NCBI GenBank assembly: GCA_037443445.1
Contig: JBBIOJ010000007.1
Span: 5,383 to 69,382, forward strand
Source: Desulfarculaceae bacterium
Lineage (GTDB): Bacteria; Desulfobacterota; Desulfocorpusculales; Desulfocorpusculum
Direction of reading: 5' to 3'
DNA length: 64,000 bases
The notes under the pieces are model-generated. The model was not told the DNA's origin. It did no database searches and saw only the letters and a program-made list of their open reading frames with translations. Positions 710 through 13,604 of this stretch are shown here, piece after piece (the stretch's first letter is position 1; each line of letters begins with the position of its first letter). Position numbers and translations under genes: made by a program.

Positions 710-1250
710 CTTCTCACACAATGTGATTACCTTATCGAGGGCTTGATGAGTCACAAGAAGCTACGGCAGATTTGACCCACCATGCAGCCTCCTGCCCGGG
801 GAACAGCTCCACAGAGGCTGAAACAGCCCAGCTAGGGATTTCCAAAGCTGAATCCAAAGGAAGCCCCCAAGACCCTGATGGCTGGTTTCCAATAAGAGGG
901 TATAGCCCTCTCCCTGGCCGAGTGGCTGGCCTTGACAAGGTGCAGTCCATCCACAACGGCCTGGGGATGGACTTCCCGGAAATATTTCAGTCTGTTCCAA
1001 AAGGAGGCCATTTTGGATGAGTGGCTGGGTTATCTTGAGCCAGGCTGAGAAAGGAGAGATGTTGCACCAGAGCCCGGATGAAATGCAGGGCCAGGCTTTT
1101 CGGGCCGCCCTGATCAAAGGATAAAAATCTCCAAAGGCTTCCGCCCCTATCCTGCAGAGGAAAACCCGGGCAGCCTGCCCGGGGTTGCAAAGCCGCGGGG
1201 ATTGGGTTAGCATTGTCTCACAGTTGTCAAAGAGCCTAGTTGAATAGGTC

Positions 1251-1327
1251 GGGCGGCTAGCTCAATTAGGCAGAGCAACGGACTCTTAATCCGTAGGTTG
1301 AAGGTTCGATTCCTTCGCCGCTCACCA
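1251..1327 (+). tRNA. tRNA-Lys (anticodon CTT)
   Basis: Acceptor stem GGGCGGC/GCCGCTC. Anticodon loop CTCTTAA. T-arm GAAGGTTCGATTCCTTC. CCA is encoded. Confidence 0.8.
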
Positions 1328-1337
1328 AGAAAAACAA

Positions 1338-1369
1338 GGACTCAGGCCCAGAGACCTGAGTCCTTTTTT
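1338..1369. terminator. Rho-independent terminator hairpin (GGACTCAGG...CCTGAGTCC followed by TTTTTT); likely bidirectional for the tRNA cluster and the convergent oxidoreductase gene
   Basis: Perfect 9-bp stem followed by a T-run. It lies between the tRNA-Lys 3' end and the stop codon of the minus-strand gene 1368..2828. Confidence 0.6.
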
Positions 1370-2828
1370 ACTCTGAAGCTGCTTCACAGGCTCTGCCTTT
1401 CAGCTGAAACAGGAATTTGAGGCCTTTTTTCACCGTATCGGAATACAGCTTCCGGGCGAAGATGTTCCCCACGGTTCTCTTGTTTATCTCCCCCAGGGTG
1501 GGATAGGGATGAACGGCAGAGGCCACAGTGGATAGCCTTACCCCTCCGTTTATGATGGCCACCCATTCATTGAGCAACTCCCCGGCGCTTGGCCCGAGGA
1601 TCTGAATGCCGAGTGGCCTGCCTCTGGTGCCCAGGATCATTTTTATTTTCCCTATCCTCTCCCCCTCCGCGAGGCTTCTGTCATTATCTTGGAAGGCTTC
1701 TACCCATGTTGTGTAATCCAGCCCGGCCTCTTGGGCCATCTTTTCGTTCATTCCCATACCGGCTAGCTCTGGGTGTGTGAAAGTGCACCACGGCATCCAC
1801 CTGTAGTTTGCTTTTCGAGGGAGGTGCAGAACGGCATTGCTGACCACTATGCTTCCCTCATACCCGGCCACGTGGGTGAACTGATACTCCCCGGTGACAT
1901 CCCCGGCAGCATAGATGTGTCTGTGTCCTGTTCTGAGCCGATCCTCCACTTCCAAACCCTTCTTGTCAAACTTCAAGTCGATTCCCTCCAACCCCAACCC
2001 ACCCAGGTTGGCTTCCCGTCCCATGGCAACAAAGATGGTCTCTGCCCTGAGGCTTTTCAGATTCCCATCCCCGGTTCTCAAGGTTACCTCTTTCTCACTC
2101 CCAAGGTCTCTGACGCTCACCACAGAGGCATTGAGGTGGAACACGACTCCTTCCTCGGCAAGGAGGTTCATGAGAATGTCCGCCATGTCCTTGTCCTCCC
2201 TGCTCAGGATCTGGTTGCTGCGCTGGATCACAAAAACTTGAGTGCCTAGACGCTGGAACGCCTGGGCCATCTCTATGGCGATGGGTCCGGCACCGAGCAG
2301 GATCATGGATTGGGGTAAACGGTCCAGGGAGAAGATCTCCTTGTTGGTGACATAAGGAGTCTGATCCAACCCTGGTATGGCCGGAATTGCCGGGGAGGAA
2401 CCCGTGGCAATCACCCAGTTCTTGGCAGAAAAAGAAGTTCCGTTGAGCCGGATGGTATGCTCATCCGTGAATGCTGGCAGGCCAAATTCCACCTGGACTC
2501 CGAGCCTGCAGAACCGCTCTGGGGAATCGTGTTTTTGTATGGTGGCAATGACTTCCCGGATCCTTCTGACCACCTCCTTGTAGTCCACAGGCGGCAGTTC
2601 CACCGATGGAAGCCCGAATTTACCTGCGTTTTTCATCAGATGGCGTACATGGGCCGTCTTGATGAGAGTCTTGCTGGGAACACAACCAAAGTGGAGGCAA
2701 TCCCCTCCCAGTTCATTCTCCTTCTCAACCAGGAGAGTCTTGGCTCCCAGCTGGGCTGCACCCGCCGCCACAGTCAGGCCCGCGGCTCCACCCCCGAGAA
2801 TGCCGATATCGAAATCATGATTCGCCAT
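1368..2828 (-). CDS. Class I pyridine nucleotide-disulfide oxidoreductase (dihydrolipoamide dehydrogenase / mercuric reductase-like core)
   Basis: N-terminal FAD-binding GxGxxG motif (GILGGGAAG). Redox-active disulfide motif GGDCLHFGCVPSK. A dimerisation domain is present. There is no C-terminal vicinal Cys-Cys pair and no NmerA domain, so it is not a MerA. Confidence 0.8.
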   Translation of the reverse strand: MANHDFDIGILGGGAAGLTVAAGAAQLGAKTLLVEKENELGGDCLHFGCVPSKTLIKTAHVRHLMKNAGKFGLPSVELPPVDYKEVVRRIREVIATIQKHDSPERFCRLGVQVEFGLPAFTDEHTIRLNGTSFSAKNWVIATGSSPAIPAIPGLDQTPYVTNKEIFSLDRLPQSMILLGAGPIAIEMAQAFQRLGTQVFVIQRSNQILSREDKDMADILMNLLAEEGVVFHLNASVVSVRDLGSEKEVTLRTGDGNLKSLRAETIFVAMGREANLGGLGLEGIDLKFDKKGLEVEDRLRTGHRHIYAAGDVTGEYQFTHVAGYEGSIVVSNAVLHLPRKANYRWMPWCTFTHPELAGMGMNEKMAQEAGLDYTTWVEAFQDNDRSLAEGERIGKIKMILGTRGRPLGIQILGPSAGELLNEWVAIINGGVRLSTVASAVHPYPTLGEINKRTVGNIFARKLYSDTVKKGLKFLFQLKGRACEAASE

Positions 2829-2851
2829 AACGTCCTCCTAGTCATAAATAT

Positions 2852-3583
2852 TCACACCTTTGAAATTTCAGATGCCTTCCTTATTCTCACCTTGTACAGG
2901 GTCATCAGCTTCTTCACCAGGAGGGGAAACAGGCCCAAGATAGCGAAGGAGACGATAAGGCTAGGGGAAAGGATCCCGGAGAGGGAATCTATCTTGGCGA
3001 GCTCTTTCCCCGCGTTGACATAAATGGCTGTCCCCGGCAGCATTCCCACCTGGGAGACCCAGTAGAAAGTGAGCAATGGAACCTTGGTAAGCCCCATTAC
3101 CAGATTTATCATCCAGAACGGGAACAGAGGGATGAGGCGCAGGGTGAAGAGGTAGAAGGGGCCTTCCCTGGCGATTCCCTCGTTGATGGTGGTGAGGCGG
3201 TCGCCGAATTTGCCCTGAACCCAGTCCCTCAGCAAGAACCTGGAGACGAAGCAAGCCAGGGTCGCCCCTATGGTGCTTGCGAAAGAGACCACCAGAACGC
3301 CTACCCAAAAACCGAAAAGGGCCCCCCCGGCCAGGGTGAGGATGGTCGCCCCTGGCAGGGAGAGGGAAGTGGAGAGGATATAGATCACCATGTAAACGGC
3401 GATCACAAGGAGGCGATTCTCCGCGTAGAGGCTTGCGAACTTGGCCTCTGAGGCCTTGAGGTAGGAGAGGGATAAATACTGTTCCAGATCAAAGATATTG
3501 AAAGCTGCGATTAAGCCCAGGACCGCCCCGAGAATCAGGATCTTGTGGATAACCCTCTTGCTCTTGTGCTTTTCATTTTTCAT
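2852..3583 (-). CDS. DedA/TVP38 (SNARE-associated) family membrane protein
   Basis: Multi-TM protein of 243 aa with the DedA-like core (LPGATILTLAGGALFG). It sits immediately downstream of the oxidoreductase, a recurrent pairing. Confidence 0.7.
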   Translation of the reverse strand: MKNEKHKSKRVIHKILILGAVLGLIAAFNIFDLEQYLSLSYLKASEAKFASLYAENRLLVIAVYMVIYILSTSLSLPGATILTLAGGALFGFWVGVLVVSFASTIGATLACFVSRFLLRDWVQGKFGDRLTTINEGIAREGPFYLFTLRLIPLFPFWMINLVMGLTKVPLLTFYWVSQVGMLPGTAIYVNAGKELAKIDSLSGILSPSLIVSFAILGLFPLLVKKLMTLYKVRIRKASEISKV

Positions 3584-4436
3584 GGGAAGCCTCGTTCAGT
3601 TTCCAGTCGTAGTGATACTCGATCCTGCCTTTGTACCCGCTCAACTTCCCGGCCAGCGGATCCGCCGCATACCTAAGCAAATGTTGGATGACCCCGGCCT
3701 GGGTTCCTCCGAAATCCGCCTGGTACCAGTCATAGATGGACGAAAGGATCAGCCCCCTTCCTTCGAATCTGGCCCCCCGGGGATGATTCACGTATTGTCG
3801 TGCCCCTTTCTCCAGGAGCCCATCAGTGTTCTCCTGTGTGAATGCCTCTGGTTGAAGGTTGGGGCAACTCATGCTGGCGCAGTTGACAGCATAGTGAACT
3901 CGGTTGTCCTTCCAAATGGGCCGGAGGATGCGATGCTCGATGTCGTTGAGCGAGGCCTCCTCGCCCTCGATTCTAAGGAGTTTGGCTCCCCAGGGTCCCT
4001 TGCTGAACAATCCCGGGGAAATGTTGATGTCCAGGATGCTCTGGACCGGATAATGATCCAGGATCACCTTCACCGTGAGGGCGTTGTAAAGGTTTATCCA
4101 ATAAGCTTTTTGTTCAAGCCGGCTGAGCCCGGAGACTCGGACAGCCTGGAGCGCGCTTAGGTATTCTTCCAGTGACTTCCTGTCAGCTTCCGTGACCGCT
4201 CCATACCTGATTTTGTTGACCCCGGAGGGATCATCGGTCACCAGGTAGTTCTTCAGGAACCGATCCCACAGGCTGTGGTCCACTCGAATGGTGCTCAGTG
4301 GGTCGTTGGCCTCCCACCTGGGCCAAAGCTCTGCTTTGGGGGCCGCTCCGGTCTCCTTTACCCCAGCCCAGAGCGCCACAAGGACCGCCCCGGAAATGAA
4401 AAAACGCTTGAAAAACATTCTGTGACTCCTTTCCAC
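3573..4436 (-). CDS. DUF547 domain protein, secreted (paralog 1)
   Basis: Has a signal peptide and the DUF547 hallmark stretch (KAYWINLYNALTV ... HYAVNCASMSCP). Confidence 0.6.
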   Translation of the reverse strand: MERSHRMFFKRFFISGAVLVALWAGVKETGAAPKAELWPRWEANDPLSTIRVDHSLWDRFLKNYLVTDDPSGVNKIRYGAVTEADRKSLEEYLSALQAVRVSGLSRLEQKAYWINLYNALTVKVILDHYPVQSILDINISPGLFSKGPWGAKLLRIEGEEASLNDIEHRILRPIWKDNRVHYAVNCASMSCPNLQPEAFTQENTDGLLEKGARQYVNHPRGARFEGRGLILSSIYDWYQADFGGTQAGVIQHLLRYAADPLAGKLSGYKGRIEYHYDWKLNEASHEK

Positions 4437-7703: not shown

Positions 7704-8063
7704 TCTGCACCGCCAGGGGGAGCATCATACCACGAGCCTTCAGGTGTAAGAATCCCGAGGGCCTGACAACCATGAACAGGAAGGAGTGGTACTTGTTGAC
7801 GAAGTGTGGCTGGGATGGGGAAAAGCCGCTGAGCCGGGAAGTTGCGCCAGAGGATGATCCCCAAAGCAGGCCTTTTTGGATGATTGCTCGGGTCCTTCCG
7901 CCATGGAGGAGGCTTCCCATTTCAATGCCTGTGCTGGATCAGGGGTTGTGGTACCGGGAGTCAGGATCCCCCGGCTGGAAACCGGATTTCCCACAAACCG
8001 GGGAGATGCGACAGGACCGATCCCGCGTTCCCGGACACGATTGCGGGACACCTTTGAGGGCTC

Positions 8064-8882
8064 TCAGGCGTTGAGGTTCCAGTCGTACGGTCGGTATCTC
8101 AATTTGAATTCGTCTCTGTGATCCGCGAGGACATCCTTCTTTTCACCCTCGTCCAGGAATCGCAGGAGTGTCTCCAGCACGCTCGTGTCCGTGCCGCCGA
8201 AGTCGGAACGGTACCAGCGAAATATCTTCGATAGGAGAACGACCCTATCTTCTGGGATGATCTCAACCTCAGGCCCGTTGATGAAGCTCGCAGCTGCAAG
8301 GTCAAGCTGGGAATCCACCCTGTCTGCCTCATAGAACCCCACGGGAGGGCACGAGCGTGCCCCACACACCAGGGCGAAATGGATCCTTGGGTCCAAGGGT
8401 GAAACCACAAACCGCCTCCTGGGATCCCTCCCGCGAAAGGGTTTCAGGAGCCCATACGGGGCTCTGCGATTGCTACGGAGAATCCCGTGTTCCATATCTT
8501 GCAAGGAAAATCGGTGTCCTCCTATCTCATAGGCCGCGCGGCAGAAGAAAAACGGGATCTCCCGTACAGACCGGCGCACCCCGAGCCTAACAACGCCGTG
8601 GATGACGGCCGCGTTGTATATGTTGATCCAGAAGGCCAGTCGCTGGCCTGGCTCGGAGAGGGAATCCAGATGGAAGGAACGAAGGCCATTGGCAAGGGCT
8701 TCGTATTTTCGAAACGTCTCCGAACGCAGCATCTCATGGTATTGGATCCTGCCGCTTTCAGGATCCAGGAATTCCGCCTTCAGATCAGCCAGGGTCAAAC
8801 TCAGAACCGTATCCACGGCCTGGCCTTCCGGCGGAGCCCCAGGCTCCCCGCGGTTGATCACTATTTTGGAACACGGGAACAC
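8064..8882 (-). CDS. DUF547 domain protein (paralog 2)
   Basis: Motifs LAFWINIYNAAVIHG and HFALVCGARSCPP. Second copy of the family in this 5-kb region. Confidence 0.6.
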   Translation of the reverse strand: MFPCSKIVINRGEPGAPPEGQAVDTVLSLTLADLKAEFLDPESGRIQYHEMLRSETFRKYEALANGLRSFHLDSLSEPGQRLAFWINIYNAAVIHGVVRLGVRRSVREIPFFFCRAAYEIGGHRFSLQDMEHGILRSNRRAPYGLLKPFRGRDPRRRFVVSPLDPRIHFALVCGARSCPPVGFYEADRVDSQLDLAAASFINGPEVEIIPEDRVVLLSKIFRWYRSDFGGTDTSVLETLLRFLDEGEKKDVLADHRDEFKLRYRPYDWNLNA

Positions 8883-8939
8883 TTTTTAACCCCCCTTCTT
8901 GCTCGGGGCAAAGGGTCACTGCCTGCTTCTCAATTGGCT

Positions 8940-9308
8940 CTAACTCGGCTCATTCTGCCCCGCAGCCTCCTCCATTCCACAGAGCCTCGGAAGAACACGG
9001 CTGCGGATAGCCGCTTCCTTCTCTGAGCTCCCCTCCCTCCCCAGGGCATCCAGGCTTCTCCACAACCTGATCTTTGCCTCGGTCCAGTTAATCTCAGGGG
9101 CCACTTGATGCAGATAATGCTCGATCTCGGCCTCTGTGGCCCTTCGATGTTTGCTCGAATGGAGAACATCACCGATGTTCCACTCGCCCTCTGGTCAGGC
9201 GGGGAAGAACACAAGGTTCCCGCCCTCCAAGAGAAGAATACTGTACTGCTCATCGTATCTCACGACCTTGAGAAAAGTCTCCGGCAGCTCAAAATCCTTT
9301 GCAGACAT
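8940..9308 (-). CDS. Candidate small selenoprotein or readthrough ORF: a 37-aa ORF with a strong RBS, an in-frame TGA at about 9195-9197, then 84 further in-frame codons with no internal start (about 122 aa in total); function unknown
   Basis: AGGAGGAGGTG sits 7 nt upstream of the ATG. The in-frame TGA is followed 14 nt later by the hairpin GAACAUC-GGU-GAUGUUC. The downstream in-frame segment (PEGEWNIGDVLHSSKHRRATEAEIEHYLHQVAPEINWTEAKIRLW...) has protein-like composition but no start codon of its own. Coordinates are +/-2. Confidence 0.25.
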
Positions 9309-9459
9309 CCCAACACCTCCTCCTATTTTGAGGCCTTCGGGCCTCACGCCAGGCGTTCTCGGCTAATGATTCCGAATCGGGCCATTCGATGTCATCCTCA
9401 ATAAATTAGTCAGCAAAGGCCAGCCCAGATTACAATCCAACTTTTTTCCCCTTTGCCTC

Positions 9460-9490
9460 TTGACCCCGTACTATGGTACGGGCTCTAGGC
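9460..9490 (+). promoter_or_regulatory. MerR-type operator/promoter: -35 TTGACC, a 19-20 bp spacer containing the dyad CCCGTAC-TATG-GTACGGG, then a -10-like TAGGCT
   Basis: Almost identical to the Tn21/Tn501 merO dyad (TCCGTAC-ATGA-GTACGGA), which is embedded in a long-spacer promoter. Located about 60 nt upstream of the merT-like gene. Confidence 0.6.
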
Positions 9491-9525
9491 TGAATTAGAA
9501 AGCACACGGTCAAGACGCCAGGTCA

Positions 9526-9966
9526 TTGACCAGCCGGGGAAGGGGGTTGATACCCATGAAGAACCACCTTGGTAAGATAGGTCTGGCAGGGGCGATTTTT
9601 GCCGCGCTGTGCTGTATCGGAACCCCGGCGCTGCTCACGATCCTAACATCCATCGGGGCAGGATTCCTGATCAACGATTCGGTCTTGCTGCCTTTGCTGG
9701 TGTTTTTCCTGACGCTCAACATCATTGGATTGCGCCTAACTTATAGAATCCATAGAAACCTCTGGCCCATGATACTTGGGGGACTGGCCTCGGCTGCCAT
9801 TGTGGTATTCATTTACGGCTGGTTCTTCAGGCCCGGCCTTTACCTGGGCCTGGGGGCCCTGGTAGCCAATTCGGTTTGGAACGCGGTTATGAAGAAGGGC
9901 TGCGAAACCAAGAGACCGCATCAAGTCCCGGGGCTTTTCCAGAGTTGTGAACGGGGGTCGCGATGA
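9526..9966 (+). CDS. merT: MerT-like mercuric/heavy-metal ion transport membrane protein
   Basis: Vicinal Cys pair in TM1 (AALCCIGTPALL), matching the MerT CC motif. A second TM segment follows, then a cytoplasmic Cys pair (GCETKRP...SC). The track start is TTG at 9526; an internal ATG at 9556 (MKNHLGKIGL) is more likely the real start. Confidence 0.55.
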   Translation: MTSRGRGLIPMKNHLGKIGLAGAIFAALCCIGTPALLTILTSIGAGFLINDSVLLPLLVFFLTLNIIGLRLTYRIHRNLWPMILGGLASAAIVVFIYGWFFRPGLYLGLGALVANSVWNAVMKKGCETKRPHQVPGLFQSCERGSR

Positions 9967-10154
9967 AGGAAACCATCACCGTGGAAGGCAATAGGCATTA
10001 TGAATGTGGCGTGTGTGGCTTCGCGTACGAGGAGAAGGAGTGGGCCGAGAAATGCGAGGCGTGGTGCTCGGCTCACGGAAGCTGCAACATGGACATTACT
10101 GAGCATGCAGTGCAGAGGAAGGTTCAGCATTCCCCACAGGAGGAACGATCCTGA
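9963..10154 (+). CDS. Small cysteine-rich protein (5 Cys in 63 aa; CGVCG ... C-x3-C-x5-C), candidate metal-binding protein
   Basis: Its start overlaps the merT-like stop (ATGA), indicating translational coupling within the mer-like operon. No recognisable family. Confidence 0.4.
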   Translation: MKETITVEGNRHYECGVCGFAYEEKEWAEKCEAWCSAHGSCNMDITEHAVQRKVQHSPQEERS

Positions 10155-10300
10155 CCAAAGGAAAATCCTCGGGCCAAAGCCTCGGTCGGTGCGCTTCACC
10201 GTGTGGGTGAACCGGGTGGTGAGCCGTCCCAAAGGAAGCTGAAAGGAGGGCTTGACTCTGCACTGTGCTCCAGGGTTTAAACTGCAAACAGAGGTGAGAC

Positions 10301-10714
10301 ATGGAGGGTCTGAGCATAGGCCAGCTGGCCAGGAAGTCCGGGGTGAATGTGGAGACCATACGCTACTACGAGAGACGGGGACTACTTCCGGCGCCGCCCC
10401 GTGGACGCTCCGGTTACCGGCATTACTCTCCGAGAGACATCCAAAGGGTACGGTTCATCAAGCGGGCTCAGAGGCTCGGATTCACACTGAAGGAGGTATC
10501 AGAGCTCTTGCAGCTGAAGGTGGATCCCCAGACCACTTGTGCTGATGTCAGAAGACGGGCTGAGATCAAGATGGCGGAAATAGACCAAAGGATTCTGGAG
10601 CTTCACGCAATGAGGCAAGCCCTTTCGAAGCTGGCAACCTCATGCCCAGGATCCGGTCCGAGTGCCGAGTGCCCGATACTGGATGTCTTGGACTCAAACG
10701 AGGAAAGGAGGTGA
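10301..10714 (+). CDS. merR: MerR-family Hg(II)-responsive transcriptional regulator
   Basis: N-terminal MerR HTH (IGQLARKSGVNVETIRYYERRGLL). Cysteines at positions 80, 115 and 124 are spaced exactly as the Hg-binding Cys82/Cys117/Cys126 of Tn501 MerR. Confidence 0.8.
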   Translation: MEGLSIGQLARKSGVNVETIRYYERRGLLPAPPRGRSGYRHYSPRDIQRVRFIKRAQRLGFTLKEVSELLQLKVDPQTTCADVRRRAEIKMAEIDQRILELHAMRQALSKLATSCPGSGPSAECPILDVLDSNEERR

Positions 10715-10719
10715 GAAAG

Positions 10720-10998
10720 ATGAATGCCAAGAGGAGGATAGAGATCTTCAGTGCAGGATGCCCCGTATGCAAGGAGGCGGTCGAGATGGTCAATGGAGCC
10801 GCCTGTCCTTCCTGCGAGGTGAGCGTGCTGGATATGCACGACTCCCAGGTCGCCAAGCGCGCGAAGGATTTGGGCATCTGTTCCGTTCCCGCGGTCCTGG
10901 TTGACGGGAAGCTAGCCGAGTGCTGCGCGGGACGCGGCCCTGATGAAGGGGCCCTCAGGGCAGCCGGGTTGGGAAGACCGATCCAGGAACACTTTTAG
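10720..10998 (+). CDS. Thioredoxin/glutaredoxin-like small redox protein with CPVC and a vicinal CC pair
   Basis: ATG at 10720 preceded by GGAGGTG. The 92-aa product carries CPVCKEA, CPSCEV and ECCAG. The track ORF 10642..10998 is the same frame with a spurious N-terminal extension. Confidence 0.5.
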   Translation: MNAKRRIEIFSAGCPVCKEAVEMVNGAACPSCEVSVLDMHDSQVAKRAKDLGICSVPAVLVDGKLAECCAGRGPDEGALRAAGLGRPIQEHF

Positions 10999-11168
10999 CA
11001 GAGGTCTAACTCTAGCGACAAGGCTCCGGGCAGGATCATCCCGCCAAGGGCCTTGTCGAGAAAGAGTCTTGGGAGCAAATGCACATTCAGCACCCGCGGA
11101 GCCGGACGGGAACATACAGTGCTTCCCGGTTCCTGCGAACTGCGGGCCATCATGGTGGCCCCGCGCCG

Positions 11169-11666
11169 TCAGCCCTTCTTCCTGCTCTTGTAGAACTTGA
11201 CCAGGCCCAGCACGTCGCGAGCCACCAGACGACCCACGGGCCCCGTGCTGTAACAGGCCACCTCCACCGTGCCCTCAGGTCGAATGAGAAAGCCGGTGGC
11301 ATGAATGATCTTGCGCTCCCTGTCATAGTAGGCCCCTGTGACCCTGGAGACCTCCTCAGCATCCATACCGTATGCCACGGGAAAGGTAATGCCCAGCCTC
11401 TCGACGGTCTGCTTGGCCTTCTCCAAAGGATCCACCGATGCGGCCACAATAGAGATCTGCTCAGCCTCGAGCTCCCCACCGAGGGCTTGGAAGTCAGCCA
11501 ACTGCTGACTGCAGAAAGGTCACCAGTGACCGCGGTAAAGGAGCACTACACCGTAGCCCGGCCCCAAATCTCGGGGCAGGACAAGCTCTGCACCCTCGAC
11601 AGTGCGCAGGCGAAGTTCGGGGAACCGGTCGTTTGCATCAAGAATTGTCTTGTTCATCCTGGCCAT
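11169..11666 (-). CDS. Peroxiredoxin-like redoxin (AhpC/TSA / PRX-like1 type) selenoprotein: in-frame TGA (11520-11522) at the peroxidatic Cys position, giving the motif W-U-P-F-C
   Basis: Track ORFs 11520..11771 and 11169..11501 share one frame and are separated only by TGA. Joined they read LLYRGHW-U-PFCSQQL, a canonical FYRGxWCPxC redoxin motif with U in place of C. The hairpin AGUCAGC-AGUUG-GCUGACU begins 9 nt after the UGA. Start is MARMNKTIL, preceded by GGGAGG. Confidence 0.6.
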
Positions 11667-11767
11667 CTCGACCTCCCAATGATATCCCATGAATCTTGTG
11701 GGTAGAACCCTTTTCCGAAGAGCTCCTTGGGCACGCCTGGGAAGGCTTCGAGGTGAGCCCAAGGTCC

Positions 11768-12448
11768 TCAAACCTGGATCCGGTACATCTGGTGATTCAG
11801 GCAGAACTCCCTTTGACCTTTGCGGTAATCCTCGAAGGCGGCCCTTACAATGGAAAACGCCTCAGAGCAGTCCTTGGCCAGGAATATCAGCTTCACATCT
11901 TCCTCATCCAGCAACCCGTCTCGAATGGGCCGATTCCTGATCCAGTCTACCAACTCTGCCCACATCTCTCCCAATAGGATCAACGGAATATGACACACAT
12001 GCCTTACCTGCATCAACTGCCAAGTGTAAAAGAACTCCAGAAGGGTTCCAATACCACCTGGAGCGATGACCGCCGCGTTGCTCAGCACCATGAAGTGATC
12101 AAGCCTTTCTGAGAAACGGGAGAAGTCTTTTTTCAAGTCCAGATGAAAGGCGTCCTTCTGTTCCTTAGGAAGACGGATGTTCAACCCAATGGAGTGAAGA
12201 GGCGCAGGGCCCCTTCCCGCGTGGTGTCCTTTGCTGGCCGCGTCCATCAGGCCGGGGCCCCCACCCGTCACAATGTCCATCCCCTCCGCGGCCAGAAGTC
12301 GCGAGAGGTTGTACACCATCCGGTATACCGGGTCACCCTCTTTGAGGCGCGCGGATCCAAAAATGGCGACTCTGAAGTGAGACCGTGCAATTTCATTTTC
12401 GATCTCCGCGGATACACCGGGTGCCCCTTTTTGATCTTGCCCGCTCAT
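11768..12448 (-). CDS. LOG family protein (cytokinin riboside 5'-monophosphate phosphoribohydrolase-like; TIGR00730)
   Basis: Motifs GGGPGLMDA and PGGIGTLLE. The ATG at 12446-12448 is preceded by AAGGAGGG. The track start at 12487 is an upstream TTG in the same frame. Confidence 0.7.
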   Translation of the reverse strand: MSGQDQKGAPGVSAEIENEIARSHFRVAIFGSARLKEGDPVYRMVYNLSRLLAAEGMDIVTGGGPGLMDAASKGHHAGRGPAPLHSIGLNIRLPKEQKDAFHLDLKKDFSRFSERLDHFMVLSNAAVIAPGGIGTLLEFFYTWQLMQVRHVCHIPLILLGEMWAELVDWIRNRPIRDGLLDEEDVKLIFLAKDCSEAFSIVRAAFEDYRKGQREFCLNHQMYRIQV

Positions 12449-12490
12449 GCTGCCCTCCTTGCCCTTGCCCCATGGGCGCGATTCCAAAGC

Positions 12491-13399
12491 TCATGGAGCT
12501 GTGAAGACCTCAGTGTCCGGGTGAAATGCCTGCCACGCAAACCAGTAGCTGTAGATGACCGGAATCTCCCCGCCACGATCATCGAAGATCCTTAGGAGCT
12601 CTCCCCCAGGGGAGATCTCGATCTGCACCTCCACTCCCCCGACTTCATCACGAAGCACTCCCGCCTTCTTTCTCAGGAGGGAGATCGGATAGGCCCTGGT
12701 GTGACCTTGGATCTCCAGGCCCAGGACCATCTCCTTGGGAGAAAGGTCGGTCCTCACGTCCCCGACGAGAAACCAGATCCCAAGACCCCTGTAATAGCCC
12801 TCGTAAGGGTCCACGGAGTAATCCCTTCGGTGGCCCGTATCCGTGGAGAGCACGAGCGTCTGGGGCTTCTTTTTCAGCCACGTCCTCCAGGTCGTTCTGA
12901 GCGAGGGAATCCTCCGCAAGGACTTGCCGGCGAGGGGGCCGGCAATGGCCTTCTCCATCATCTGGGACCAGAGGCTTTCGTTCTGGTGGTCGTAAAGAAG
13001 CACGTTGCTCTTGTAAAGCAATCCTGACACCCCGAATGTATGTGTCACGCCCTCCAAAGCCCGGGAGTAGACCACCCCCGATTGTGTGAGCGGTCAGAAG
13101 GTCACGACCACCGGAGCGCCGCCCACGGTGTCGTTGACGACCTCGTGCCAGTTGAGGATCTTGATGGGGTAAGCCTTTGCTTCCTCTCCCACCGCTACCC
13201 CTATGACCGTATCGTCGGGCTTGAGAAATAGTGCTTCCTGTGGACTTACGAACTTGGGTTCCAGAATCGCCGGGATCCCGTCCTTGGGAGGTCCTCCAGA
13301 GAGAATCTCCCCCTTCGGAACGATGGCGTTATCCAGCCGGAAGCCCGTGACCGCAACCCACAACCCAAAAGCGGTCAGGAATTGACCGATTCTCTTCAT
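12491..13399 (-). CDS. DUF3179 family secreted protein with an in-frame TGA at 13094-13096 (candidate selenoprotein; alternatively a nonsense pseudogene)
   Basis: Track ORFs 13094..13399 (signal peptide plus N-terminal half ...GGAPVVVTF) and 12491..13075 (C-terminal half, ...YWFAWQAFHP) are in the same frame and separated by a single TGA. The junction reads VVVTF-U-PLTQSG. The hairpin CGGGGGU-GGUCU-ACUCCCG begins 13 nt after the TGA. Confidence 0.45.
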
Positions 13400-13604
13400 G
13401 GCTTCTGCCCTGCGGATCCCTTCTCTTTAGTCCGACCAAGTCCGAAGATCTTACGCCAGTGGCAAAAGACATCATCACCTTGAGCGTTACACTCGATCCG
13501 CTGGAGGAAGGCTCCCGGCAATTCTCCCCTTGACTTACCCTTTTCTTTGTATATTGATGTATATCATCATTTAGCAAAGTAAAGAAGATAGGGGGAGGTA
13601 TCCC

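What the first reader, a model, noticed from the sequence alone, without database searches (positions are those of the whole stretch)
9460..10998. mer-like operon with a canonical MerR operator but no merA/merP; novel small Cys proteins instead
The upstream dyad CCCGTAC-TATG-GTACGGG, set in a long-spacer promoter, is almost the Tn21/Tn501 merO sequence. The MerR homolog has Cys residues at the exact Hg-ligand spacing (80/115/124 versus 82/117/126). A MerT-like transporter with a TM1 CC pair is present. There is no mercuric reductase or MerP. In their place are a translationally coupled 63-aa five-Cys protein and a 92-aa thioredoxin-fold protein with CPVC plus a vicinal CC, reminiscent of the MerA C-terminal CC. 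The nearest disulfide reductase (1368..2828) lacks MerA-specific features. This may be an alternative Hg or thiophilic-metal handling module (import and sequestration or thiol exchange) adjacent to the selenoprotein island.
Basis: partly seen in the sequence, partly recalled or inferred. Interest (0 to 1): 0.6.

Follow-up and report, generated by a model that had tools for sequence, protein, structure and literature searches.

The report
Mercury-sensing operon without mercuric reductase
A mercury-type sensor (MerR) with its textbook DNA operator controls a membrane carrier and two small cysteine-rich proteins but no mercury-reducing enzyme. The sensor plus thioredoxin-like pair recurs across many bacterial phyla, nearly always without the reductase, and none of five literature searches found it described.

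Summary
The sequence features are real. A perfect 7-4-7 dyad, CCCGTAC-TATG-GTACGGG (9465-9482), lies in a 20-bp-spacer promoter and matches 12 of 14 arm bases of Tn21 merO. Four intact co-directional genes follow.

- The transporter belongs to the MerC family, not MerT.
- The 63-aa protein belongs to Pfam DUF7128, a small zinc-finger-like family. Elsewhere it sits in thiol-redox gene clusters, not mer operons.
- The MerR has the three Hg-ligand cysteines.
- The 92-aa protein has a thioredoxin fold and six conserved cysteines (CxxC, CxxC, CC). At least 2,941 cluster representatives are known.

In 37 species-representative genomes this thioredoxin-like gene sits beside a MerR gene in 31. None has merA in the same operon. 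The closest relatives carry merO-type operators.

One related metagenome contig, at the same chromosomal site, has cys63-merR-trx followed by merTP-merA-merC. The window is therefore a reductase-less version of a true mer locus. No merA, merP or HMA motif occurs in the 64 kb.

The best reading is an Hg(II)-induced uptake and thiol hand-off or buffering module. The mechanism is inferred, not shown. I class it as a new variant of a known kind, of moderate interest.

The parts
9460..9491 (+). Promoter P1 with a merO-type operator. It reads -35 TTGACC (9460-9465), dyad CCCGTAC-TATG-GTACGGG (9465-9482), -10 TAGGCT (9486-9491), with a 20-bp spacer. It drives merC and cys63.
   Evidence: The core is unique in the window with 0 expected by chance. 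The same architecture lies upstream of merR or trx in relatives. It is conserved in L001. The Tn21 reference was verified.
9556..9966 (+). merC-like gene (136 aa). It has a vicinal Cys19-Cys20 in the first hydrophobic segment, four hydrophobic segments, and C-terminal Cys115 and Cys130.
   Evidence: Pfam MerC PF03203 gives 48.9 bits against a cutoff of 27.6. The NCBIfam MerF, MerC and MerT models all score below cutoff. It is 43% identical to the MerC encoded downstream of merA in L004.
9963..10154 (+). cys63, a 63-aa DUF7128-family protein. Cys15, Cys18, Cys31, Cys35 and Cys41 are invariant. The predicted fold is a beta-beta-alpha zinc-finger-like unit. The gene is translationally coupled to merC through an ATGA overlap.
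   Evidence: The AF2 model has pLDDT 79, about 90 in the core. No significant PDB fold match was found; the nearest shapes are C2H2-type fingers.
10192..10214 (+). Hairpin CGCTTCACC-gtgtg-GGTGAACCG between cys63 and P2. It may be an attenuator or terminator but has no T-run.
   Evidence: repeat I5. The terminator scan did not call it.
10252..10283 (+). Promoter P2, also MerR-type. It reads TTGACT (10252-10257), a 20-bp spacer holding the degenerate dyad TCTGCAC-TGTG-CTCCAGG, then TAAACT (10278-10283). It drives merR and trx.
   Evidence: It is identical in L001. L004 has TTGACT-20-TAGACT at the same place. The right arm CTCCAGGG equals that of the B. thailandensis plasmid operator.
10301..10714 (+). 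merR (137 aa), a heavy-metal MerR with Cys80, Cys115 and Cys124.
   Evidence: TIGR02051 MerR gives 144.8 bits against a cutoff of 150.85. CueR gives 136.7 against 147.4. The best PDB hits are Bacillus MerR 4UA1 (103 bits), CueR (101) and Tn501 MerR 5CRL (100), with all three Cys aligned to the MerRs. It is 74% identical to the L004 MerR that heads an operon containing merA.
10720..10998 (+). trx-like gene (92 aa). It has a thioredoxin fold with C14PVC17, C29PSC32, cis-Pro57 and C68C69 on a low-confidence, probably flexible, C-terminal tail.
   Evidence: Pfam Thioredoxin_3 gives 34.9 bits against a cutoff of 24.8. The AF2 model has pLDDT 78: the core is 87-94 and the tail is below 55. The nearest structure is NE0084, PDB 2K8S.

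Best explanation
This is an Hg(II)-responsive, MerR-controlled module that lacks a reductase. It has two co-directional MerR-type promoters.
- P1 has a perfect merO-type dyad and expresses a MerC-family membrane carrier and a small zinc-finger-like Cys protein (DUF7128).
- P2 has a degenerate dyad and expresses MerR itself and a cytosolic six-Cys thioredoxin-fold protein.

Shown:
- the anatomy of the locus;
- the family assignments;
- that the MerR-Trx pair under a MerR-type long-spacer promoter (merO-type in the closest relatives) is a recurrent unit in many phyla, almost always without merA in the operon;
- that a relative carries the same genes at the same site fused to merTP-merA-merC.

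Inferred:
- Hg(II)-MerR activates both promoters.
- MerC takes Hg(II) across the membrane on its Cys19-Cys20 pair and passes it to its C-terminal cysteines.
- The Trx-like protein then takes Hg(II) by thiol ligand exchange on CPxC and the flexible CC tail. This is functionally like NmerA plus the MerA C-terminal tail.
- The Trx-like protein either buffers the metal or passes it to whatever sink the genome has. That sink is MerA where present, as in L004. It may be efflux pumps in other genomes. In this genome it is unknown.
- The locus probably arose from, or gave rise to, the full mer operon by loss or gain of a 3.5-kb merTP-merA-merC block.
For: - Operator: unique and not expected by chance, and 12 of 14 arm bases match the verified Tn21 merO.
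- MerR: the three Hg-ligand Cys align with solved Hg-MerRs. The first ligand position is Cys, where the aligned CueR sequence has Ser.
- L004: MerR is 74%, Trx 72% and cys63 69% identical. The flanks are the same (candidate Sec ORF on the left, Sec peroxiredoxin-like gene on the right). A MerA scoring 554 bits against the 454 cutoff lies downstream of trx, and no MerR-type promoter was seen by eye in the trx-merTP gap.
- Survey of 37 GTDB species loci: MerR is adjacent in 31, a MerC-like gene lies between merR and trx in 17, and merA is in the same operon in 0.
- merO-type promoters lie upstream of the module in relatives.
- Other Hg-related partners occur elsewhere: MerT-MerP-GDCCVxC and MerB.
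- All four ORFs and both promoters are intact in the window and in the 97%-identical L001. dN/dS against L004 is 0.13-0.26.
- Trx family: six conserved Cys and a disordered CC tail.
Against: - No experiment supports any step.
- MerR is 6 bits below the NCBIfam MerR cutoff and scores almost as well on the CueR and ZntR models.
- P2 has only a weak dyad.
- More distant Trx-MerR pairs carry CadR-, ZntR- or CueR-like operators and sit by P-type ATPases or RND pumps. The Trx family is therefore not Hg-specific.
- Importing Hg(II) without a reductase is known (general knowledge of mer genetics) to cause hypersensitivity, so a sink is needed and none is visible.
- The rest of the genome could not be searched for merA.
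- The window-versus-L001 comparison has too few substitutions to show selection on merC (dN/dS 0.61 from 14 changes).
Confidence: 0.55

Rival explanations
1. The locus is a relic. The four genes are what remains of a complete mer operon after deletion of merTP-merA-merC (and of the MerC-like gene between merR and trx). They have no adaptive role of their own.
For: L004 has the complete operon at the syntenic site. The window has 189 bp where L004 has 3.48 kb, and merR abuts trx where L004 has a 143-aa gene. L004 itself shows decay of the first merC, which lacks its N-terminus and has a degraded operator.
Against: All four ORFs, the ATGA coupling and a perfect P1 dyad are intact in two genomes. 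dN/dS is below 0.3 against L004. merA-less MerR-Trx units are the rule in 37 species. A direct MerR-Trx junction recurs in L006, L010, L011, L015, L020 and L026. The direction of change, loss here or gain in L004, is not resolved.
Confidence: 0.15
2. The locus is an accessory module for a merA encoded elsewhere in the genome. It would supply Hg(II) uptake and hand-off while reduction is done by a distant MerA, or by the nearby flavoprotein disulfide reductase at 1371-2828. Synechocystis offers a precedent, with Slr0701 (MerR) controlling a distant MerA-like Slr1849.
For: In three loci a separate merA lies 6-10 kb from the module (L011, L022, L025). Synechocystis provides the precedent for dispersed MerR and MerA (PMC6741143). 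A 486-aa flavoprotein disulfide reductase lies 6.6 kb upstream, next to DedA and DUF547 genes.
Against: No MerA occurs in 64 kb. The operator motif occurs nowhere else in the window. The nearby flavoprotein fails the MerA model (362 bits against 454) and lacks the C-terminal CC and NmerA. The rest of the genome is unavailable.
Confidence: 0.2
3. The effector is not Hg. The module would respond to another thiophilic metal (Cd, Zn, Pb, Cu, Au) or to disulfide stress, with the Trx-like protein acting as a general thiol-repair oxidoreductase.
For: MerR scores nearly equally on the CueR and ZntR models. Distant Trx-MerR pairs have CadR-, ZntR- or CueR-like dyads and P-type ATPase or RND neighbours. 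The right arm of P2 equals the ZntR-like operator of L049. The surrounding genes are thiol- and redox-themed: a Sec peroxiredoxin-like gene, a flavoprotein disulfide reductase, and an ECF sigma factor with a zf-HC2 anti-sigma.
Against: P1 is a GTAC-core merO dyad. The transporter is MerC family. The 74%-identical MerR in L004 heads an operon with a bona fide MerA. MerB, MerT and MerP are partners in other loci.
Confidence: 0.1

Closest known systems
Tn21/Tn501 narrow-spectrum mer operon (merR / merO / merTP(C)AD)
   Same: It has a MerR with three Cys ligands, a 7-4-7 GTAC-core dyad inside an over-long-spacer sigma-70 promoter (12 of 14 arm bases identical), and a Cys-pair membrane carrier of the MerC family.
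   Different: There is no merA, merP, merT or merD. merR is co-directional and downstream instead of divergent. The spacer is 20 bp instead of 19. There are two MerR-type promoters. It has extra DUF7128 and Trx-like genes.
Gram-positive mer operons (Bacillus RC607 / pI258 type)
   Same: merR is transcribed in the same direction as the structural genes. The best solved-structure match of the MerR is the Bacillus MerR 4UA1. A longer-spacer promoter in those operons is recalled from memory and was not tested here.
   Different: Those operons carry merA (and merB). Here merR is the third gene and has its own promoter.
MerR-(MerC-like)-Trx cassette seen here in 37 GTDB species and on plasmids. Examples: B. 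thailandensis p1 has trx-merR-merT-merP-GDCCVxC; Chloroflexi L055 has MerB and ArsR next to MerR-Trx.
   Same: The MerR and Trx families are the same (45-57% and 55-75% identity). A merO-type 20-bp-spacer promoter is present, and no merA lies in the operon.
   Different: The window lacks the MerC-like gene, often a 240-aa fusion, that normally lies between merR and trx. It has instead a separate upstream merC-cys63 unit under its own merO promoter. The cassette was not found described in any paper in five full-text searches.
NmerA domain and C-terminal CC tail of MerA
   Same: This is a functional analogy only. Both offer a soluble CxxC site plus a mobile vicinal CC that could accept Hg(II) by ligand exchange.
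   Different: NmerA has an HMA (ferredoxin-like) fold, whereas this protein has a thioredoxin fold. No homology is claimed.
Small Thioredoxin_3 proteins (MTH895/ArsE family, MJ0307, NE0084 = PDB 2K8S)
   Same: The minimal thioredoxin fold, the N-terminal CPxC and the cis-Pro are shared.
   Different: Scores are far below the NCBIfam cutoffs (24 bits against 62-93). The extra conserved CxxC and C-terminal CC are absent from NE0084 in the alignment.
Synechocystis Slr0701 (MerR) / Slr1849 (MerA-like) / Grx1
   Same: It is an Hg-responsive MerR regulon not organised as a classical mer operon, with a link to a glutaredoxin-type protein (PMC6741143).
   Different: That system has a reductase. The cyanobacterial Trx-MerR pairs found here have a different, CueR-like, operator.

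Membership tests
Canonical mer operon (Tn21/Tn501 type) | MerR-type activator with three Hg-ligand cysteines | tested here: met
   Cys80, Cys115 and Cys124 align with the Cys of 4UA1 and 5CRL.
Canonical mer operon (Tn21/Tn501 type) | merO dyad (TCCGTAC-N4-GTACGGA) within a 19-20-bp-spacer promoter | tested here: met
   CCCGTAC-TATG-GTACGGG lies at 9465-9482 between TTGACC and TAGGCT. None is expected by chance. The reference was verified in R100.
Canonical mer operon (Tn21/Tn501 type) | Mercuric reductase MerA in the operon | tested here: not met
   tblastn with the L004 MerA finds only a 36%-identical flavoprotein at 1371-2828. That protein scores 362 bits against the 454.45 cutoff of TIGR02053.
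Canonical mer operon (Tn21/Tn501 type) | MerT and MerP uptake pair | tested here: not met
   No MerTP hit occurs in the window. No GMTCxxC motif is present. The MerT Pfam score is 12.5 against a cutoff of 32.9.
Canonical mer operon (Tn21/Tn501 type) | Hg(II)-inducible transcription and Hg(II) resistance | not testable with these tools
   This needs reporter and growth assays.
NCBIfam TIGR02051 MerR (Hg-responsive equivalog) | Score at or above the curated cutoff of 150.85 bits | tested here: not met
   The score is 144.8 bits. CueR gives 136.7 against 147.4, and ZntR PRK09514 gives 133.7 against 143.
Pfam MerC (PF03203) | Score at or above the gathering threshold of 27.6 bits | tested here: met
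   The score is 48.9 bits over residues 7-110. The NCBIfam MerC equivalogs are not met (29 bits against 140-170).
Pfam Thioredoxin_3 (PF13192) | Score at or above 24.8 bits, with the CxxC and cis-Pro of the thioredoxin fold | tested here: met
   The score is 34.9 bits. C14xxC17 and P57 are invariant. The predicted fold is thioredoxin-like.
Pfam DUF7128 (PF23447) | Score at or above the gathering threshold of 25.7 bits | tested here: inconclusive
   The window protein scores 18.7 bits. Its homologues at 50-70% identity carry precomputed PF23447 hits and share all invariant residues.
MerR-(MerC-like)-Trx cassette (defined here) | MerR and Trx-like genes adjacent on one strand under a MerR-type long-spacer promoter | tested here: met
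   merR ends at 10714 and trx starts at 10720. P2 lies at 10252-10283. The same layout is seen in 31 of 37 loci.
MerR-(MerC-like)-Trx cassette (defined here) | MerC-like membrane gene (CPAC motif) between merR and trx | tested here: not met
   It is absent in the window and L001. It is present in L004 and 17 loci.

The most novel reading that the evidence does not exclude
The six-Cys thioredoxin-fold family is the conserved effector of a widespread, MerA-independent route for handling Hg(II) and other thiophilic metals. Under MerR control it would strip metal from membrane carriers or damaged thiols and hold or relay it. In this lineage it is joined by a DUF7128 zinc-finger protein. The invariant Cys41 of DUF7128 (replaced by an in-frame UGA in one homologue) would be a reactive partner of thiol-lined membrane proteins. 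This would define two new functional classes of mer accessory proteins.
Probability: 0.25. Interest if true: 0.7.

Novelty: new variant of a known kind. Interest (0 to 1): 0.45.

Why it matters
Mercury resistance is taught as reduction by MerA, and surveys of Hg cycling count merA and merB. Here a MerR regulator is paired with a conserved six-Cys thioredoxin-like protein in dozens of species across many phyla. The closest relatives carry textbook merO operators, and merA is almost never in the operon. If this unit really handles Hg(II), three things follow.

- Gene-based estimates of microbial Hg tolerance miss a common mechanism.
- A simple two-gene sensor-plus-binder unit becomes available for biosensing and metal capture.
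- The window, L001 and L004 together offer a natural with-and-without-merA comparison at one chromosomal site.

The module is directly testable with reporter fusions and metal-binding assays.

Tried and rejected
- Exact look-ups of the window MerR and Trx proteins in the contig index found nothing. Cluster look-up gave no names or organism, so the host genome could not be identified or searched for merA.
- Five full-text literature searches found no description of the module or of either small protein. The terms were: mer operon with thioredoxin-like, MerR with glutaredoxin-like, GDCCVxC, DUF7128, and MerR with 'thioredoxin family protein'. The one 'thioredoxin family protein' lead (Nitratiruptor) was an ars-type gene and unrelated.
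- Neighbour clustering with greedy ORF picking was swamped by antisense ORFs in high-GC loci. I replaced it with targeted tblastn.
- A profile comparison of the Trx family with the N-terminal soluble domain of the 240-aa MerC-like fusions was not significant (probability 1%). I therefore dropped the idea that the two are paralogues.
- A fold search with the cys63 model gave no significant PDB match (best E = 0.64).
- Rfam found nothing in 8000-12500.
- I considered the 1371-2828 flavoprotein as a cryptic MerA and rejected it.
- I looked for a link to mercury methylation. No hgcA motif occurs in the window.
- I looked for a composition anomaly that would suggest recent transfer. None was found: GC is 0.569 in the mer region and 0.583 in the window.
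Full report
**1. What is in the sequence**

Between 9460 and 10998 there are four co-directional ORFs and two promoter-like sites.

- P1 reads TTGACC (9460-9465), a 20-bp spacer, then TAGGCT (9486-9491). The spacer holds the perfect dyad CCCGTAC-TATG-GTACGGG (9465-9482).
- The core CCGTAC-N4-GTACGG occurs once in the 64 kb. It occurred in none of 100 dinucleotide-preserving shuffles, even with one mismatch allowed.
- I verified the reference operator. The 42-mer CTTGACTCCGTACATGAGTACGGAAGTAAGGTTACGCTATCC is found in 2,209 plasmids. In R100 it lies between merR and merT. The window dyad matches 12 of 14 arm positions, with a spacer of 20 instead of 19.
- P2 reads TTGACT (10252-10257), a 20-bp spacer, then TAAACT (10278-10283). 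It lies 17 bp upstream of merR and carries only a degenerate dyad, TCTGCAC-TGTG-CTCCAGG.

**2. The four proteins**

- *Transporter, 9556-9966 (136 aa).* It is MerC family: PF03203 gives 48.9 bits against a cutoff of 27.6, while MerT gives only 12.5 bits. All NCBIfam mer transporter equivalogs score below cutoff.
- *cys63, 9963-10154 (63 aa).* Its start overlaps the merC stop codon (ATGA).
  - As a single query it finds 5 relatives. As a profile it finds 185, and 858 cluster representatives in the exhaustive search. Many carry Pfam DUF7128.
  - Invariant residues are C15, C18, C31, C35, C41, Y22, W34 and N42.
  - The AF2 model has pLDDT 79, about 90 in the core. It shows a beta-hairpin with the CxxC followed by a helix with the CxxxC, a beta-beta-alpha zinc-finger geometry.
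  - It has no significant PDB neighbour.
- *MerR, 10301-10714 (137 aa).*
  - It scores 144.8 bits on TIGR02051 MerR (cutoff 150.85), 136.7 on CueR and 133.7 on ZntR.
  - Its best solved relatives are Bacillus MerR 4UA1 (103 bits), CueR (101) and Tn501 MerR 5CRL (100).
  - In both MerR alignments Cys80, Cys115 and Cys124 align with cysteines of the MerRs. In the CueR alignment position 80 is a serine.
- *Trx-like protein, 10720-10998 (92 aa).*
  - It passes Thioredoxin_3 (34.9 bits against 24.8).
  - It belongs to a family with at least 2,941 cluster representatives of about 89 aa, at 70-80% identity to the window protein among the best 120.
  - C14xxC17 and Pro57 are invariant. C29xxC32 and C68C69 are conserved in at least 90% of a broad alignment and in all members of a closer one.
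  - The AF2 model has pLDDT 78. It has a confident Trx core (87-94) and a low-confidence tail from residue 66 on that carries the CC.
  - The nearest structure is the uncharacterised Trx-like NE0084, PDB 2K8S.

**3. No reductase here**

- tblastn with a bona fide MerA and a MerTP fusion finds nothing in the 64 kb except the flavoprotein at 1371-2828, which is 36% identical.
- That protein scores 362 bits on the MerA model (cutoff 454). It fits 'FAD-containing oxidoreductase' better and ends ...KGRACEAASE, without a CC pair.
- No HMA GMTCxxC, GDCCVxC or hgcA motif occurs in any frame.

**4. Relatives at the same chromosomal site**

- *L001* (a Logan assembly) is 97% identical in DNA. It has the same four genes and both promoters.
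- *L004* (a JGI metagenome contig) is about 71-79% identical in DNA and shares both flanks. These are a small minus-strand ORF with an in-frame TGA on the left, and a Sec peroxiredoxin-like gene, GRDB and MEDS on the right.
  - L004 carries: a truncated merC lacking its N-terminus, cys63, merR, a 143-aa MerC-like gene, trx, merT-HMA, merA, merC and orf87.
  - Its MerA passes TIGR02053 (554 bits). It has an N-terminal GMTCGHC and a C-terminal SCCSA.
  - By eye I saw no MerR-type promoter in the trx-merTP gap. The L004 MerR is 74% identical to the window MerR. It therefore most likely controls merA.
- The window differs from L004 by two indels: 423 bp between merR and trx, and 3.48 kb (against 189 bp) after trx.
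- Whether the window lost these segments or L004 gained them is not resolved. Across that divergence dN/dS is 0.13-0.26 for cys63, merR and trx.

**5. The wider family**

A scan of one genome per GTDB species with the Trx-like protein returned 37 loci. They come from Desulfobacterota-type MAGs, Nitrospinota, Planctomycetota, Verrucomicrobiota, Acidobacteriota, Myxococcota, Alpha-, Beta- and Gammaproteobacteria, Cyanobacteria, Spirochaetota and others. Targeted tblastn gave the following.

- A MerR gene lies adjacent on the same strand in 31 of 37.
- A MerC-like gene lies between merR and trx in 17. It is often a ~240-aa fusion of a soluble Cys domain and a CPACWPAY membrane domain.
- The direct merR-trx junction seen in the window occurs in 7.
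- merA is in the same operon in none. A separate merA lies 6-10 kb away in 3.

The promoter upstream of the first gene of the module is always MerR-type, and the operator class tracks relatedness.

- The closest relatives have TTGACy-CCGTA(C/G)-N4-GTACGG-...-TAnnnT with a 20-bp spacer.
- More distant subclades differ. Pyrinomonadaceae have CTGTA-N6-TACAG next to a P-type ATPase. Cyanobacteria have CTTGAAG-N4-CTTCAAG. A B. thailandensis plasmid has a ZntR-like CCTGGAG-CGTA-CTCCAGG.

Partners of the module elsewhere vary.

- MerT-MerP-GDCCVxC occurs without merA on the B. thailandensis plasmid, where PGAP calls the protein 'thioredoxin family protein'.
- MerB plus ArsR occurs in a Chloroflexi MAG.
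- A CusCBA-like RND pump and a P-type ATPase occur in L054.

The Trx-like protein is thus a general partner of MerR-family thiophilic-metal sensors. The window belongs to the Hg-type subclade.

**6. DUF7128 contexts**

- Outside the window lineage, cys63 homologues are not in mer operons.
- In CPR and Chloroflexota genomes they sit among DsbD_TM/CcdA, DSBA, VKOR, glutaredoxin and AhpC-TSA genes. Some lie next to a thioredoxin-reductase-like gene or a heavy-metal ATPase. They often directly follow a small membrane protein.
- L002 has a second copy that overlaps the end of a Thioredoxin_3 gene downstream of an HMA protein.
- In L051 the invariant Cys41 codon is TGA. The frame continues NIEITTHGVPLG and stops where the Cys-containing homologues stop. 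This single case hints at a Sec/Cys pair, and so at Cys41 being the reactive residue.

**7. Interpretation**

*Shown.* This is a mer-type regulatory unit with a MerC carrier, no reductase in 64 kb, and two Cys-rich small proteins. One of them (Trx-like) is a conserved MerR partner across phyla. Both also occur in a true merA operon at the syntenic site.

*Inferred.* Hg(II)-MerR activates P1 and P2. MerC carries Hg(II) in. The Trx-like protein accepts it by ligand exchange on CPxC and the mobile CC. It then buffers the metal or relays it to a sink that is not visible here.

*Rivals.*
- A relic of a deleted mer operon.
- An accessory to a merA elsewhere in the genome.
- A module that responds to a metal other than Hg, or to thiol stress.

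The main weakness is that Hg(II) import without a reductase should be harmful, and the rest of the genome could not be examined.

**8. Novelty**

Five full-text searches found no description of the MerR-Trx cassette, of DUF7128 or of GDCCVxC proteins. The components belong to known superfamilies and the regulatory logic is classical MerR. I therefore rate this a new variant of a known kind and of moderate interest. It is easy to test and may be common, but nothing here is mechanistically surprising yet.

Noticed in passing
window 8945-9308 (- strand); L004 about 1150-1531 (- strand): A small ORF, preceded by the sequence GGAGGAGG, has an in-frame TGA at 9195-9197 (..LVFFPA-TGA-PEGEWNIGDV..) and reads on for 84 more codons. 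L004 has the same TGA, conserved downstream protein sequence, and an identical hairpin GGAACAUCGGUGAUGUUC about 13 nt after the TGA. There is no Pfam hit. It is a candidate new selenoprotein, transcribed divergently from merC.
   Followed up: partly
window 9112-9378 compared with L001 8285-8298: L001 lacks 268 bp that the window and L004 have, with a 13-bp overlap at the junction. The deletion removes the 5' part of the candidate selenoprotein gene but leaves P1 intact.
   Followed up: partly
window 11169-11666 (- strand): An AhpC/TSA-like ORF is interrupted by an in-frame TGA in the motif LLYRGHW-U-PFCSQQ. It looks like a Sec-containing peroxiredoxin-like protein, convergent with trx. The same gene flanks the mer locus in L001 and L004.
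   Followed up: partly
L051 389-547 (JGI 3300023278): A DUF7128 homologue has TGA exactly at the invariant Cys41 position. The conserved frame continues to a normal TAA stop. This is a possible Sec/Cys pair that would mark Cys41 as the reactive residue. Only one case was found among about 258 family members inspected.
   Followed up: partly
L005, L007, L009, L012, L014, L016, L017, L022, L027, L040, L054 (gene between merR and trx): The MerC-like gene of the cassette is usually about 240 aa. It has an N-terminal soluble domain (ELIYDxxCPN...GSPTxLVxG...CCRxY) fused to a membrane domain with CPACWPAY and a C-terminal CxxC. There is no Pfam or NCBIfam model for the soluble part. A profile comparison with the Trx family was not significant.
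   Followed up: partly
window 1371-4436 and 8064-8882 (- strand): A flavoprotein disulfide reductase (486 aa), a DedA/VTT membrane protein and a DUF547 protein form a cluster. A second DUF547 gene lies just left of the mer locus. An ECF sigma factor with a zf-HC2 anti-sigma pair lies between them. The neighbourhood is thiol- and redox-themed, and its relation to the mer module is unknown.
   Followed up: no
L049 (B. thailandensis plasmid NZ_CP068711, 91.6-93.3 kb); also L008 and L029-L031: Small 'GDCCVxC domain-containing (seleno)protein' genes accompany Trx-MerR-MerT-MerP units that have no merA. This is another uncharacterised Cys-rich mer-associated family.
   Followed up: no
window 13409-13594 compared with L001 12316-16317: L001 carries about 4 kb that are absent from the window at this point. 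By the gene calls for L001, the extra DNA encodes a TPP enzyme, an aldehyde dehydrogenase and small ORFs.
   Followed up: no
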